A stretch of 64,000 nt of DNA from the human T2T-CHM13v2.0 reference genome, Homo sapiens, in assembly GCF_009914755.1 (NCBI RefSeq), contig NC_060925.1, one strand, 5' to 3'. Shown one piece after another: positions 22,501 through 25,199 of the stretch; the first letter of the stretch is position 1, and the number at the start of each line of letters is the position of its first letter. The notes below the pieces were generated by a model, which was not told the origin of the DNA, ran no database searches, and saw only the letters and a program-made list of their open reading frames with translations. Made by a program: the position numbers and the translations under genes.

Positions 22501-22950
22501 TTAATCATACTCTAAAGAAGACCCTAGCTAAGTCAGAGGCCTGACTATCTCTAACACCCATAGCTTACTCCGGGTTTGAGCTGCTCCAAAGGAAAACTTA
22601 CAATTACTTCCTGTCGAGTTAACATAGGGGAGGCCTCTCCTAACCACAGATCTCCTAATAGAAAAGGACTCATCAATTACAAAAATATGTCATCAATGTG
22701 GGACAGGTGCAAAGGCACTCTGTGAACACGGAAACAAAAGGCTTCCCCTCCACACGGGAGGAAAATTCCATTTCAGCTCAGCTAGGGATTTAGTCTTACT
22801 AAAGACATGGGAGGAAGTTCTCCAGCTGACCAGCTTTCCCCAACGTGGAAAGGACCACAGCAAGGCCACCTGAGCTCTCCAACAGACCTTGAACGCCAAG
22901 GGATTCACAGGTGGGTACACCTGTGTGGAAGTAAAGCTGTTGCTTATTCT
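16505..22950 (+). mobile_element. Defective class I (gammaretrovirus-like, HERV9/W-supergroup) ERV internal region: gag-pro-pol, no env or 3' LTR
   Basis: Gag motifs LQLNLSYRRETKWEEIHYVQA and KQFSEDPEKFID; zinc knuckle CALCKKVSHYQREC (18774-18815); protease FLLDMGAD; RT QYLGDLL; RNase H NIYTDSKY; integrase C-terminal WKGP...RWVHL (~22846-22930). Confidence 0.92.
20691..21343 (-). mobile_element. THE1B-like solo LTR with AluS (20901-21190, plus strand); mirror of 13769-14421
   Basis: tgtattagtctg...gccaaaccacatca; the Alu lacks its first ~20 nt. Confidence 0.9.
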
Positions 22951-23076
22951 GGGAGCCCAATCTGAGGCTGGGGGAGGTGGGCGCGGGGTTATTTTAGCGT
23001 TGGCGGAGCACTGGCCCTGTCGCTGCGCTCCTGCTCCTCCTCGCGTTTCTCCTGCCGCCCTAGTCCAGCAGTGGCC
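22951..23076 (+). promoter_or_regulatory. Residual beta-tubulin core promoter/5' UTR (CCAAT box, GC-rich box, degenerate TATA tattttagcgttggcggagc); mirror at 12037-12162
   Basis: ccaat at ~22957 and a TATA-like element at ~22990, resembling the TUBB4B TATAAGCGTTGGCGGAGC as I recall it; CpG-rich through exon 1/intron 1. Confidence 0.55.
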
Positions 23077-25199
23077 ATGAGGGAGATCGTGCTATGGCAG
23101 ACCGGGCAGTGCGGGAACCAGATCGGTGCCAAGGTTGGTGGCCGGGGCTCTGAGGGCCCAGCGCGGGCCTGCCGGGTGGCCCGAGAAGATGTTGGCAGCG
23201 GCTGGGGCTGTATTGCGGCCCCCCGTCTCCGCGCCTGGGACGCGGTGGAGCTGGGTGGCTGGCTAGGCAGCCAGGGCGGACCCCCAGGGATCCAGCGGCC
23301 TGGGGGTGGGGATAGGAGAGGGGCTGGGGAGCCTCGGGCTCCCTGGCCTCCGTGACTCAGCCCTGGCCTGTTTGGCCCCTCGTGTCTCTCGCAGTTCTGG
23401 GAGGTGATCTCTGATGAACATGCCATCGACTCTGCTGGCACCTGCCACGGGGACAGGGACCTGCAGCTGGAGCGCATCAACATGTACTACAACGAGGCCA
23501 GCGGTGAGACCCCTGTCCTTCCCCAGCCGCCCTCCTGGGAATGGCGGCCCTCTCCTCGCTGATGCCCTCCCGCCCCCGTCAGGTGGCAGGTACGTGCCCC
23601 GCCCTGTGCTTGTGGATGTGGAGCCGGGCACCATCGGCTCTGTGTGCTCAGCGCCATTCGGGAGGATCTTCAGGCCGGACGACTTCATCTTCGGTGAGCT
23701 GCGGGTGAGGACTGGGGTGAGGCTCCTTAGCCAGGGCCGCTCAAATTCAAGGAGTGCCCCAAAGTCATCGCTGTGGGAACTGTGGAGCTAGGGCCCCTGA
23801 ACACCCTCCCATCCTGAGTCACGCAATCTCCTTCTCCTAAACGGGCTTTGGGAGGAAGGCCCAGCTGTCTGCCTGAGAGGAGCTGCTGATGCAATCTTTC
23901 TGCAGGGAGCTGGGCTGGGGGCAGTGGCTGCTGCTTTTCTTGGGGATGGGCAGGAGCCACCTGCAGCCAGGTCTGTTGTGTTAGGCTGTCTCAGGTTCGG
24001 CTCCTGACTTAACTTCTAACAGGGGAGGCTGCTGTCCTTCAGCTTTGGGGGAGGGAGGTCCACCTGCTCCACCTGCAGGGTGAATGGTGCTTTCACCTCA
24101 CACGTGACACTTGGCCCTTTTTTGCATTGTGGTGACCCCTGATGACTGTATATCTGGCCATCCAGCGACTTGCTGTGTTGTCTTACAGGTCAGTGTGGGG
24201 CCGGGAACAACTGGGCCAAGGGGCACTACACAGAAGGTGCAGAGCTGAAGGAGACGCTGATGGATGTTGTGAAAAAGAATCTGAGAGCTGTGACTGCCTG
24301 CAGGGTTTCCAGCTTACCCACTCCCTGGGTGGGGGTACCGGGTCTCTGATGGATACTCTTCTCATCAGTAAGATCTGGGAGGAGTACCCAGACAGGATCA
24401 TAAACACATTCAGTGTTCTGCCTTTGCCCAAGGTGTCAGACACCGTGGTGGAGCCCTACAATGCCACCCTCTCAGTCCACCAGCTCATGGAAAATGCAGA
24501 TGAGACCTTTTGCATTGATAGTGAAGCTCTGTAGTTCTGTATGACATCTGTTCCAGAACCCTAAAACTGCCCACACCCACCTACGGTGACCTGAATCACC
24601 TGGTGTCTGCTACCACAAGTGGGGTCCCCATGTGCCTGTGCTTCCCAGGCCAGCTGAATACTGATCTGCAAAGGCTGGCCACGAACGTGATCCTAGTTTC
24701 CTGGCTGCACTTCTTCATGCTTCGCTTTGCTCCACTGTCCAGCCGGGGCAGCCAGCCAGTAGTACTCGGCCCTGACCATGGCTGAGTTCACCCAGCAGAT
24801 GTTTGATGCTAAGAATGATGGTTGCCTGTGAGCCCCGTCATGGCCACTACCTGACAGTGGCTGCCGTTTTCAGAGGTTGCATGCCCATGAGGGAGGTGGA
24901 TGAGCAAATGTTCAATATTCAAAATAAGAACAGCAGGTACTCTGCTGATTGGCTCCCTCACAATGTGAAAATGGCTATCTGTGCCATCCCACCCAAGGGG
25001 CTAAAAATGGCCACCTGCATTGGCAACGACACGGCCATCCGGGAGCTGTTCGAGTGTGTTCCAGGCCTTCCTGCACTGGTACACGGGCGAGGGCATGGAC
25101 GTGATGGAGTTCACCGAGGCCAAGAGCAACATGAACGACCTGCTGTCTGAGTATCAGCAGTACCAGGACGCCACAGCCGAGGAGGAGGAGGTGGCCTAG
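23077..25199 (+). pseudogene. TUBB8P9: Unprocessed TUBB8-like pseudogene (exons 23077-23133, 23395-23503, 23583-23693, 24189-25199; probably TUBB8P9, symbol from memory)
   Basis: Exon sizes of 57/109/111 nt match beta-tubulin genes and all GT-AG sites are intact. It has the same exon-4 lesions as the left copy. Confidence 0.93.

What the first reader, a model, noticed from the sequence alone, without database searches (positions are those of the whole stretch)
22840..23080. ERV integrase end fused directly onto a ~125-bp tubulin core promoter
Seen: the ERV pol C-terminal motif (WKGP...RWVHL) ends at ~22950 with no env, polypurine tract or 3' LTR, and CCAAT/TATA-like tubulin promoter sequence starts at once. 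This looks like a rearrangement junction rather than a normal integration. Inference: the upstream housekeeping regulatory region of the TUBB4B-like ancestor was replaced by same-orientation retroviral sequence. If functional TUBB8 shares this junction, ERV promoter replacement could explain how an oocyte-specific tubulin evolved in primates.
Basis: partly seen in the sequence, partly recalled or inferred. Interest (0 to 1): 0.75.

Follow-up and report, generated by a model that had tools for sequence, protein, structure and literature searches.

The report
Dead retrovirus fused to TUBB8 promoter
A dead retrovirus is joined directly to a cut-down tubulin promoter, and this same joint sits in front of every copy of the TUBB8 tubulin family, including the working egg-cell gene, so it may help explain why that gene is used only in eggs.

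Summary
A degraded class I (gamma-like) ERV (5' LTR, gag, protease, RT, RNase H, integrase) runs on the + strand from 16105 to about 22947. There it is joined to DNA copied from the TUBB4B locus on chr9q34.3 (22947 to about 28562). A related provirus on chr3 continues past this point with about 2.75 kb of env-bearing sequence and a 3' LTR; none of that is in the window.

The breakpoint lies about 43 bp upstream of the TATA-like box and 75 bp upstream of the annotated exon 1 start. It removes both TUBB4B CCAAT boxes and the upstream half of its CpG island.

The same joint is present in 29 of 29 junction-spanning copies in T2T-CHM13. These include the intact 444-codon genes on chr10p (TUBB8) and chr18p (TUBB8B). 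No family copy keeps TUBB4B-like upstream DNA, so this was one founding rearrangement.

The annotated exon 1 start lies in tubulin-derived DNA, not in the ERV.

Whether the ERV, or only the promoter truncation, causes oocyte-specific expression could not be tested here. No paper describing the joint was found.

The parts
16105..16504 (+). 3' 400 bp of the ERV 5' LTR. About 170 bp of its 5' end was cut off by the window's inverted-duplication joint.
   Evidence: It matches both LTRs of the chr3 relative and solo-LTR-like copies elsewhere at 74-77%. LTR length of about 570 bp and the truncation come.
16505..17900 (+). ERV leader and start of gag. The primer-binding site was not confidently identified.
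   Evidence: Collinear with the chr3 provirus.
17935..18875 (+). Degraded gag (capsid and nucleocapsid fragments).
   Evidence: Gag_p30 hit with E 0.0036, below the curated cut-off. ORF fragments.
18916..19158 (+). Protease fragment.
   Evidence: RVP hit with E 8e-4, just below the curated cut-off.
19214..20742 (+). Reverse transcriptase region, in broken frames.
   Evidence: RVT_1 hit on 19776-20033 with E 2e-4. Collinear with the chr3 provirus.
20837..21209 (.). Alu-like insertion inside pol, also present in the chr10 and chr9q copies.
   Evidence: Masked stretch in the hub table. It matches many Alu-like stretches. The alignment to chr10 is continuous across it.
21370..21660 (+). RNase H fragment.
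   Evidence: RNase_H hit with E 5e-8, above the curated cut-off.
21906..22947 (+). Integrase: zinc-binding domain, degraded core and C-terminal SH3-like domain, cut about 34 codons before the end.
   Evidence: Integrase_H2C2 with E 6e-7 and MLVIN_C with E 9e-6. Truncation is judged against the chr4 relative's frame.
22823..22923 (.). Four CANNTG E-boxes in integrase-coding DNA, including the pair CAGGTGGGTACACCTG at 22908-22923. The chr10 TUBB8 copy has five in 95 bp.
   Evidence: Each box is kept in 26-29 of 29 copies.
22947..22948 (+). ERV::TUBB4B breakpoint (plus or minus 1 nt), with one T of possible overlap.
   Evidence: Three-way alignments with two ERV relatives and TUBB4B. The 19-nt joint string is identical in 25 of 29 copies; the other 4 differ by 1-2 substitutions.
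22948..23021 (+). TUBB4B-derived core promoter remnant, with the TATA-like box TATTTTAG at 22990-22997 and CCAAT at 22957-22961.
   Evidence: Alignment to TUBB4B, which reads TATATAAG at the box.
23022..25367 (+). TUBB8P9 pseudogene: 4 exons, ATG at 23077, first stop at codon 146.
   Evidence: Hub annotation.
22947..28562 (+). Whole segment copied from the TUBB4B locus on chr9q34.3, including part of the minus-strand neighbouring gene.
   Evidence: 70-76% homology including promoter, introns and 3' flank. The neighbour's chr9 ORF matches Pfam CMI2B-like.
12165..12166 (-). Mirror copy of the same joint in the left palindrome arm, upstream of TUBB8P10.
   Evidence: 100% identical over 401 bases. 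TUBB4B homology spans 9927-12166 and ERV homology 12155-12793.

Best explanation
The joint at 22947/22948 is the founding breakpoint of the whole TUBB8 gene family.

Shown: a DNA segment of about 5.6 kb from the TUBB4B locus was copied. It starts about 130 bp before the ATG and carries the introns and part of the next gene. Its 5' end was joined by non-homologous end joining to the 3' end of pol of an already resident, same-orientation class I ERV. At most 1-2 nt overlap at the joint, with a short imperfect similarity just beyond it. The ERV's env and 3' LTR are missing. The chimeric block of about 14 kb then spread to subtelomeres and pericentromeres.

Inferred: the functional effect is promoter truncation. 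The new gene kept only the TATA-like box and start site of a housekeeping tubulin promoter. It lost both CCAAT boxes and the upstream half of the CpG island, which CpG-poor retroviral DNA replaced. Such a bare TATA-type core would be poorly used in somatic cells. It fits the TATA/W-box, sharp-start promoter type that the oocyte factor TBPL2 prefers in mouse. The ERV is therefore mainly what displaced the old regulatory DNA. Its integrase-coding E-box cluster may add positive input.
For: Structure:
- ERV domain order from Pfam.
- The ERV is collinear with the chr3 provirus up to 22958, and the env and 3' LTR tail is absent from the window.
- TUBB4B homology covers 22947-28562, including promoter, introns and 3' flank. 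Other tubulin genes match only exons.
- The neighbouring gene piece matches Pfam CMI2B-like.

Single origin:
- 29 of 29 junction-spanning matches carry the same joint. A 30th copy has a 95-bp deletion across it.
- All 15 family copies that keep introns 1-3 are on that list.
- The chr10 and chr18 copies are intact 444-codon genes.

No TUBB4B-upstream DNA lies beyond the ERV's 5' LTR within 10 kb on chr10 or 4 kb on chr9q; only Alu matches were found.

Truncation:
- TUBB4B has CCAAT boxes about 238 and 178 bp before its ATG, and GC 0.57-0.83 with CpG o/e 0.65-1.23 for 1 kb upstream.
- From 300 to 1000 bp before its ATG, TUBB8 has GC 0.38-0.48 and CpG o/e of 0.28 or less.
- The TATA-like box sits at -32 to -25 from the annotated exon 1 start (and the hub table).

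Literature:
- Mouse TBPL2-dependent starts carry a W-box at -31 to -24 and are sharp (PMC7755920, passages).
- Dispersed paralogues are reported with oocyte or maternal transcripts. TUBB8P7 is a top MII-oocyte transcript (PMC5797088, passages). TUBB7P, TUBB8P7, TUBB8P8 and TUBB8P12 behave together with TUBB8 (PMC10330962, passages). This suggests the specificity travels with the duplicon.
Against: - No expression, TSS, methylation or binding data were examined. The start site is taken from a curated pseudogene model, not measured.
- Short-read assignment among paralogues 95-97% identical may be wrong, which weakens the 'travels with the duplicon' argument. The supplementary tables of those papers were not read.
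- The TBPL2 rule comes from mouse.
- TUBB4B itself has a good TATA box and is broadly expressed, so a TATA box alone does not give oocyte specificity.
- The order of events cannot be recovered from one genome: the ERV may have been there first, or may have integrated later with a deletion following.
- ERV DNA between TUBB8 and TUBB8B is no better conserved than the introns (96.1% against 94.7-97.3%), so there is no sign of constraint on it. Power is low.
Confidence: 0.6

Rival explanations
1. Positive co-option of ERV coding DNA. The integrase-coding stretch just upstream of the joint supplies an E-box cluster that oocyte bHLH factors (FIGLA with TCF3/TCF12) bind. This cluster, not the truncation, is what makes TUBB8 oocyte-specific.
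For: - chr10 TUBB8 has five CANNTG boxes within 95 bp, at ATG-256 to -157. Only 0.07% of 110-bp windows in the 40-kb locus reach five.
- The pair CAGGTGNNNNCACCTG occurs only at the two mirror joints in the window, against 0.01 expected by chance.
- Each of the four boxes present in the window copy is kept in 26-29 of 29 copies.
- FIGLA was defined by binding a conserved E-box within 200 bp of the Zp1-3 starts (PMC1906760, passages).
- TCF3/TCF12 recognise CANNTG and are oocyte regulators (PMC13748978, passages).
Against: - The motif was found after looking, and CANNTG is a loose pattern.
- Most copies are pseudogenes, so keeping the boxes reflects low CpG content rather than selection. ERV nucleotide diversity is even along the element at 0.06-0.09.
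- No binding data were examined.
- CACCTG/CAGGTG is also bound by somatic repressors (recalled, not tested).
Confidence: 0.2
2. The ERV 5' LTR acts as the promoter. Oocyte transcripts start in the same-orientation LTR and read or splice into the tubulin exons, as in classic LTR co-option.
For: - A complete LTR of about 570 bp lies in the same orientation about 3 kb upstream of the TUBB8 start on chr10.
- Transcripts that start in LTRs are common in mammalian oocytes (PMC7755920, passages).
- ERV1 expression correlates with TUBB8 and TUBB8P8 in PCOS oocytes (PMC8450412, abstract and passages).
Against: - The annotated exon 1 starts 32 bp after the TATA-like box in tubulin-derived DNA (hub table).
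- Splicing from an ERV donor into exon 2 would skip the ATG and the first 19 codons.
- An unspliced read-through would carry a 5' leader of about 3 kb.
- The correlated ERV1 elements in PMC8450412 lie on chromosomes 2-5, not at this locus.
Confidence: 0.07
3. A different order of events. TUBB4B was first duplicated with more of its promoter, the ERV integrated upstream afterwards, and a later deletion removed env, the 3' LTR and the intervening promoter.
For: It gives the same present-day sequence. Deletions are frequent in this family: 17005-20413, 23137-29831, and the 95-bp deletion on chr12.
Against: - No TUBB4B-upstream homology lies beyond the 5' LTR.
- No copy preserves an intermediate form: 0 of the 15 copies that keep introns 1-3.
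- It needs two events where one suffices.
Confidence: 0.1
4. The joint has no regulatory meaning. Oocyte specificity comes from elsewhere, such as intronic or 3' elements, post-transcriptional stability or subtelomeric chromatin. The joint is only a scar of segmental duplication.
For: - No functional data tie the joint to expression.
- 15 of 29 joint-bearing copies are exon-1-only remnants in heterochromatin.
- There is no excess conservation of the ERV part.
Against: - The breakpoint removes all recognisable upstream promoter elements of a housekeeping gene. It is hard to see how that could be without effect.
- Paralogues in different chromosomal settings are reported as oocyte transcripts.
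Confidence: 0.2

Closest known systems
Subtelomeric duplicon 'block 8' (4q, 14 kb, TUBB4q) of Ambrosini et al. 2007 (PMC2323237, table passage seen), and the 10p/18p TUBB8-family duplicon of the 2026 subtelomere preprint (10.64898/2026.07.10.737660, passages)
   Same: The window's unit shared with chr9q and chr10p runs 16105-29988, which is 13.9 kb. Copies lie at 4q, 9q, 10p, 16q and 18p ends and carry the tubulin gene.
   Different: In the passages seen, those papers list the block and its gene. They do not describe its make-up (ERV LTR-gag-pol, then a TUBB4B segment, then other DNA) or the promoter breakpoint.
LTR-initiated oocyte genes (MT/MaLR LTRs co-opted as oocyte promoters; described in PMC7755920, passages)
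   Same: A retroelement lies directly upstream of, and in the same orientation as, a gene expressed in oocytes. The core is TATA-type.
   Different: Here the TATA-like box and annotated start are host-derived. The abutting retroviral DNA is integrase-coding sequence, not an LTR. The LTR lies about 3 kb (TUBB8) to 6.5 kb (this window) upstream.
Gamma-like (class I) endogenous retroviruses of the human genome
   Same: gag p30, protease, RT, RNase H, zinc-binding integrase and an MLV-type integrase C-terminal domain. A relative carries a gamma-type env TM motif.
   Different: The family name could not be assigned because no repeat library was available. This copy has no env or 3' LTR, and all of its frames are broken.
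TUBB4B, the parent gene (chr9q34.3)
   Same: Four-exon structure; 91% protein identity with TUBB8 over the first 430 residues; homologous promoter core, introns and 3' flank.
   Different: TUBB4B keeps two CCAAT boxes, a canonical TATATAAG box and a CpG island reaching at least 1 kb upstream.

Membership tests
TUBB8 gene family / 14-kb tubulin duplicon | Four-exon beta-tubulin gene whose non-coding DNA is homologous to the TUBB4B locus | tested here: met
   Window 22947-28562 matches chr9 TUBB4B at 70-76%, including introns and flank. Splice sites are GT/AG in all 6 target copies mapped.
TUBB8 gene family / 14-kb tubulin duplicon | Shares the ERV::promoter joint with functional TUBB8 | tested here: met
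   29 of 29 junction-spanning copies, including the intact chr10 and chr18 genes.
TUBB8 gene family / 14-kb tubulin duplicon | Intact reading frame (functional member) | tested here: not met
   First stop at codon 146 (TUBB8P9) and at codon 164 (TUBB8P10).
Class I (gamma-like) ERV provirus | gag-pro-pol domains in retroviral order on one strand | tested here: met
   Gag_p30, RVP, RVT_1, RNase_H, Integrase_H2C2 and MLVIN_C occur in that order. Four of the six hits are below their curated cut-offs, as expected for a degraded copy.
Class I (gamma-like) ERV provirus | Two LTRs, env and a polypurine tract | tested here: not met
   Only a 5' LTR is present. The env and 3' LTR of the chr3 relative have no match in the window apart from Alu sequence and the relative's 3' LTR matching the window's own 5' LTR.
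Class I (gamma-like) ERV provirus | Primer-binding site next to the 5' LTR, used to name the family | tested here: inconclusive
   The LTR end was placed at 16504, but no clear 18-nt site starts within 3 nt of it. No tRNA comparison was run.
LTR-derived (TE-exapted) gene promoter | The transcription start lies inside the LTR | tested here: not met
   The annotated exon 1 start at 23022 is 75 bp downstream of the joint, in TUBB4B-derived DNA (hub table). This is annotation only; no TSS data were seen.
Processed retrocopy (retrogene) | Intronless, poly(A) tail, no parental flanks | tested here: not met
   The introns, promoter core and 3.4 kb of parental 3' flank are retained.
TBPL2-type oocyte core promoter (TATA/W-box, sharp start) | AT-rich box at about -31 to -24 from the start | tested here: met
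   TATTTTAG at 22990-22997 is -32 to -25 from 23022. TUBB8 reads TATTTAAA there. The rule comes from PMC7755920.
TBPL2-type oocyte core promoter (TATA/W-box, sharp start) | Sharp TSS cluster and dependence on TBPL2 | not testable with these tools
   Needs oocyte CAGE and a TBPL2 perturbation.

The most novel reading that the evidence does not exclude
The 14-kb duplicon carries a portable oocyte promoter made of two unrelated scraps. One is a housekeeping tubulin promoter cut down to its TATA core. The other is retroviral integrase-coding DNA whose codons happen to spell a cluster of five E-boxes, 105-200 bp upstream of the start. Together they would be read by the oocyte machinery (TBPL2/TFIIA with FIGLA-TCF3/12) and ignored by somatic cells. 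A single breakage-and-joining event would then have created the primate oocyte tubulin. It would also explain why paralogues on 4q, 16q and 18p are reported as maternal transcripts.
Probability: 0.2. Interest if true: 0.8.

Novelty: new member of a known kind. Interest (0 to 1): 0.6.

Why it matters
TUBB8 is described as the main beta-tubulin of the human oocyte spindle, as primate-specific, and as a cause of oocyte maturation arrest when mutated (PMC10598138, passages).

How a copy of a broadly expressed tubulin became oocyte-restricted is not explained in any paper I could find.

The sequence gives a concrete, testable starting point. The gene was born with only 75 bp of its parent's promoter, and everything upstream is retroviral. 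That defines the exact constructs to test: the core alone, the core plus the ERV-proximal 200 bp, and the TUBB4B upstream region swapped back in. It also defines the exact sequence to look for in other primates to date the event.

The joint also refines the anatomy of a widespread subtelomeric and pericentromeric duplicon.

Tried and rejected
- Rest of the ERV downstream of the tubulin piece (which would indicate insertion into an ERV). blastn and tblastx of the chr3 relative's env-3'LTR part against the window found only Alu matches and the 5' LTR. Not supported for this locus.
- TUBB4B-upstream DNA beyond the 5' LTR. Only Alu matches were found.
- Source of the DNA after the TUBB4B piece (28563-29988). 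The best non-family match is chr1:55.0M at 73-81%. The first look gave 815 candidates, of which 40 were scored, so it may be an interspersed repeat. No Pfam domain scored above its curated cut-off; the only hit was one weak DUF3959 match, E 0.005. Left unresolved.
- Extra conservation of the ERV part near the joint. Nucleotide diversity is 0.051 (non-CpG sites) in the last 60 bp against 0.066 in the rest of the ERV, which is not a clear signal. The apparent jump in diversity on the tubulin side was an alignment artefact: 15 copies lack the gene body.
- Dating from divergence. Non-CpG K between TUBB8 and TUBB4B is 0.17 in the gene body and 0.40 in the flank, with 851 gap columns out of 6513. 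This is too noisy, and CpG decay is too strong, to date the event.
- ERV family name. No repeat library was available, and the primer-binding site was not clear.
- Feng et al. 2016 (PMC4767273) is not held in the library.
Only chr9q, chr4q, chr1:241M and chr1:55M were added afterwards.
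Full report
**What is at the coordinates**

On the + strand, the frame 22786-22965 reads ...SPTWKGPQQGHLSSPTDLERQGIHRWVHLCGSKAVAYSGSPI*. It matches the MLV-type integrase C-terminal domain: Pfam MLVIN_C, profile positions 17-53 of 56, E 8.8e-6, 25.8 bits against a curated cut-off of 29.2.

Eighteen ORF fragments between 17935 and 23077 were scanned. Six gave retroviral hits in the order Gag_p30, RVP, RVT_1, RNase_H, Integrase_H2C2, MLVIN_C. One gave a chance-level ApoB100_C hit, and eleven gave nothing. 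All frames are broken, so this is a dead class I, gamma-like provirus.

The tubulin ATG is at 23077-23079, and the hub's table puts the exon 1 start of TUBB8P9 at 23022.

**Where each homology ends**

A related provirus on chr3 (about 77% identical) is collinear with window 16105-22958. A more distant relative on chr4 (65%) is collinear with 21347-22947.

The TUBB4B locus on chr9 matches 22947-25188 at 76% and continues in pieces to about 28562. In a five-way alignment both ERV relatives read CTTAT|GGAGCCCCACA, TUBB4B reads CGTTCTGGCAGCCCATTCC, and the family reads CTTATTCTGGGAGCCCAATC. The four bases TCTG are present in TUBB4B and absent from both ERVs.

- The most economical breakpoint is therefore 22947|22948, with one T of possible overlap.
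- A short imperfect similarity (GGAGCCC against GGCAGCCC) lies just beyond it.
- This is an end-joining scar, not the edge of an integration, because no LTR end is there.
- Relative to the chr4 relative's frame, the integrase lacks about its last 34 codons.

**What is missing**

After the homologous point, the chr3 provirus has about 2.75 kb followed by a 3' LTR. Its ORFs include a gamma-type env TM motif. blastn and tblastx of that part against the window found only Alu matches and the LTR's match to the window's own 5' LTR.

The window's 5' LTR is only the 3' 400 bp (16105-16504). The full LTR is about 570 bp on chr10, chr4q and chr3.

**How much promoter is left**

TUBB4B has CCAAT boxes about 238 and 178 bp before its ATG, and the box TATATAAG. 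Its upstream 1 kb is CpG-island-like (GC 0.57-0.83, CpG o/e 0.65-1.23).

The breakpoint falls between the proximal CCAAT box and the TATA box. From 300 to 1000 bp before its ATG, TUBB8 has GC 0.38-0.48 and CpG o/e of 0.28 or less.

What remains is 75 bp of promoter, with a TATA-like box at -32 to -25 from the annotated start, and a 55-nt 5' UTR.

It occurs in 15 of 29 copies and is CCGAAT in chr10 TUBB8. It is not an inherited CCAAT box.

**Is it shared with functional TUBB8?**

Yes. A 231-base query across the joint found 32 matches from 31 candidates:

- 29 matches span the joint.
- Two matches are the halves of a chr12 copy with a 95-bp deletion over the joint.
- One match is the chr3 ERV, which matches only the ERV side.

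The 19-base joint string is identical in 25 of the 29; the other 4 differ by 1-2 substitutions.

The chr10:42k copy has an intact 444-codon frame, and so does chr18:41k. TUBB4B has 445 codons. TUBB8 and TUBB4B proteins are 91% identical over the first 430 residues.

A search with introns 1-3 found 15 family copies that keep them. All 15 are on the joint list. The only other family piece lacks its 5' end (chr1:302k). No copy keeps TUBB4B-like upstream DNA, so the joint predates the spread of the family.

**Origin**

- The tubulin piece keeps its introns, its promoter core and 3.4 kb of 3' flank. That flank includes part of the minus-strand neighbour; its chr9 ORF matches Pfam CMI2B-like, E 5e-8. 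It is therefore a DNA-level duplication, not a retrocopy.
- Only TUBB4B matches outside the exons.
- Beyond the 5' LTR, the chr10 and chr9q copies share no DNA with the TUBB4B upstream region except Alu. This argues against the ERV having integrated into a longer duplicated promoter.
- The unit shared with chr9q and chr10p runs 16105-29988, or 13.9 kb. That fits the 14-kb '4q block 8, TUBB4q' of Ambrosini et al. (PMC2323237, table passage). In other copies the shared block extends at least 1.6 kb further upstream of the LTR.

**Variants of the block**

- The chr9q, chr10p and chr18p copies lack 17005-20413, so their ERV remnant is about 3.5 kb.
- The chr4q copy keeps LTR-gag-pol plus a 2.65-kb insertion.
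- Fifteen of the 29 copies keep only the ERV, promoter and exon 1, with 23137 joined to 29831. They lie on acrocentric short arms, the chr20 pericentromere and contig C24.
- The chr4q and chr9q copies have ACG in place of the start codon.

**What it may do**

This part is inference.

The cut leaves a bare TATA-type core. In mouse oocytes TBPL2/TFIIA replaces TBP/TFIID and prefers a W-box at -31 to -24 with sharp starts (PMC7755920, passages). The position of the box here fits that rule.

Several dispersed paralogues are reported among oocyte or maternal transcripts:

- TUBB8P7 is a top MII-oocyte transcript (PMC5797088, passages).
- TUBB7P, TUBB8P7, TUBB8P8 and TUBB8P12 vary together with TUBB8 and known maternal genes (PMC10330962, passages).

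If read mapping among these near-identical paralogues is right, the specificity travels with the block. I did not read those papers' supplementary tables.

A second lead is the ERV DNA next to the joint, which is rich in E-boxes. There are five CANNTG in 95 bp in chr10 TUBB8, a density reached by 0.07% of 110-bp windows of that 40-kb locus. The pair CAGGTGNNNNCACCTG occurs only at the two mirror joints in the window, against 0.01 expected. FIGLA and the E-proteins TCF3/TCF12 bind such boxes in oocyte promoters (PMC1906760 and PMC13748978, passages). I found this motif after looking, so it is weak evidence.

The LTR-promoter reading is the least likely. The annotated start is host-derived, and a splice into exon 2 would skip the ATG.

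**Against the regulatory reading**

- No TSS, expression, methylation or binding data were available.
- ERV identity between TUBB8 and TUBB8B (96.1%) is the same as in the introns (94.7-97.3%), so there is no sign of constraint.
- TUBB4B itself has a strong TATA box and is not oocyte-restricted.

**Literature**

These are the searches that bear on the joint; some searches were background searches.

| Search terms | Result |
|---|---|
| TUBB8, retrovirus, LTR, retrotransposon, TUBB4B, promoter (at least 3 of 6) | Of the 25 papers listed, 3 contain TUBB8; one was opened (see below) |
| TUBB8 + TUBB4B + primate + duplication | 0 papers |
| TUBB8, subtelomeric, ERV1, HERV, segmental duplication, pseudogene (at least 3 of 6) | Of the 20 papers listed, 2 contain TUBB8; one was opened |
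| TUBB8, oocyte, transcription start, promoter, primate-specific (at least 4 of 5) | Of the 20 papers listed, 9 contain TUBB8; one was opened |
| TUBB8 + 'endogenous retrovir' | 6 papers |
| The paralogue names with 'oocyte' | 15 papers; two were opened for the expression reports above |

None of the passages I opened, and no title in these listings, describes the joint. Most listed papers were seen only as titles and abstracts.

The nearest paper reports a correlation between ERV1 elements on chromosomes 2-5 and TUBB8/TUBB8P8 levels in PCOS oocytes (PMC8450412, abstract and passages). The original TUBB4Q paper (van Geel et al. 2000) and Feng et al. 2016 were not available to me, so an earlier mention of the retroviral flank cannot be excluded.

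**Verdict**

The causal half is open. It is a clear, testable lead about a medically relevant gene, built from known kinds of events: a segmental-duplication breakpoint and a transposable element placed next to a gene.

Noticed in passing
window 8106-16103 (-) and 19008-27000 (+), spacer 16104-19007: TUBB8P10 and TUBB8P9 sit head to head in a palindrome. The inner 5.5 kb of the arms (19008-24500) is 99.0-100% identical per 500 bp, while the outer part is only 77-95% identical. This suggests arm-to-arm gene conversion, or a young inverted copy laid over an older one. The left arm is cut at ERV position 19008 and butted to LTR position 16105.
   Followed up: partly
L032-L034, L038-L042, L045-L051 (acrocentric short arms, chr20 pericentromere, contig C24:10.45M): Fifteen of the 29 joint-bearing copies keep only the ERV, core promoter and exon 1. 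Window position 23137 is joined to 29831, a 6.7-kb deletion shared by all 15, so this remnant itself was amplified.
   Followed up: partly
chr10:44.8-45.7k, chr9:150.437M, chr18:44.0-44.9k against window 17005-20413: The subtelomeric copies, including functional TUBB8, share a 3.4-kb internal ERV deletion (gag to mid-RT) with about 12 bases of overlap at its edges. The chr4q copy and this window keep the full gag-pol.
   Followed up: partly
window 25235-27866 (-), against chr9 L013:7868-9603 (-): The lncRNA LOC105373122 exons overlap the part of the TUBB4B-derived segment that corresponds to the neighbouring ciliary gene on chr9 (Pfam CMI2B-like). The lncRNA is probably a decayed partial copy of that gene.
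   Followed up: partly
L035 (chr9:150.44M) and L036 (chr4:193.35M): These two copies have ACG where the others have the ATG start codon, and TGTTTAAG in place of the TATA-like box.
   Followed up: no
chr10:42k against chr18:41k, equivalent to window 22947-23076: The core promoter and 5' UTR is the most diverged stretch between TUBB8 and TUBB8B (90.2% identity against 94.7-97.3% elsewhere), probably through CpG decay.
   Followed up: no
window 28563-29988: The DNA that follows the TUBB4B-derived piece is neither TUBB4B-locus nor ERV. Its best non-family match is chr1:55.0M (73-81%), and on chr10 that homology runs on for 2 kb. It may be an interspersed repeat or a third source locus.
   Followed up: partly
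chr3:200.85M, chr14:4.41M, chr22:9.28M, chr1:0.30M: Further copies of the block's LTR end or 3' end exist without the joint region. They are presumably copies with larger deletions and were not examined.
   Followed up: no
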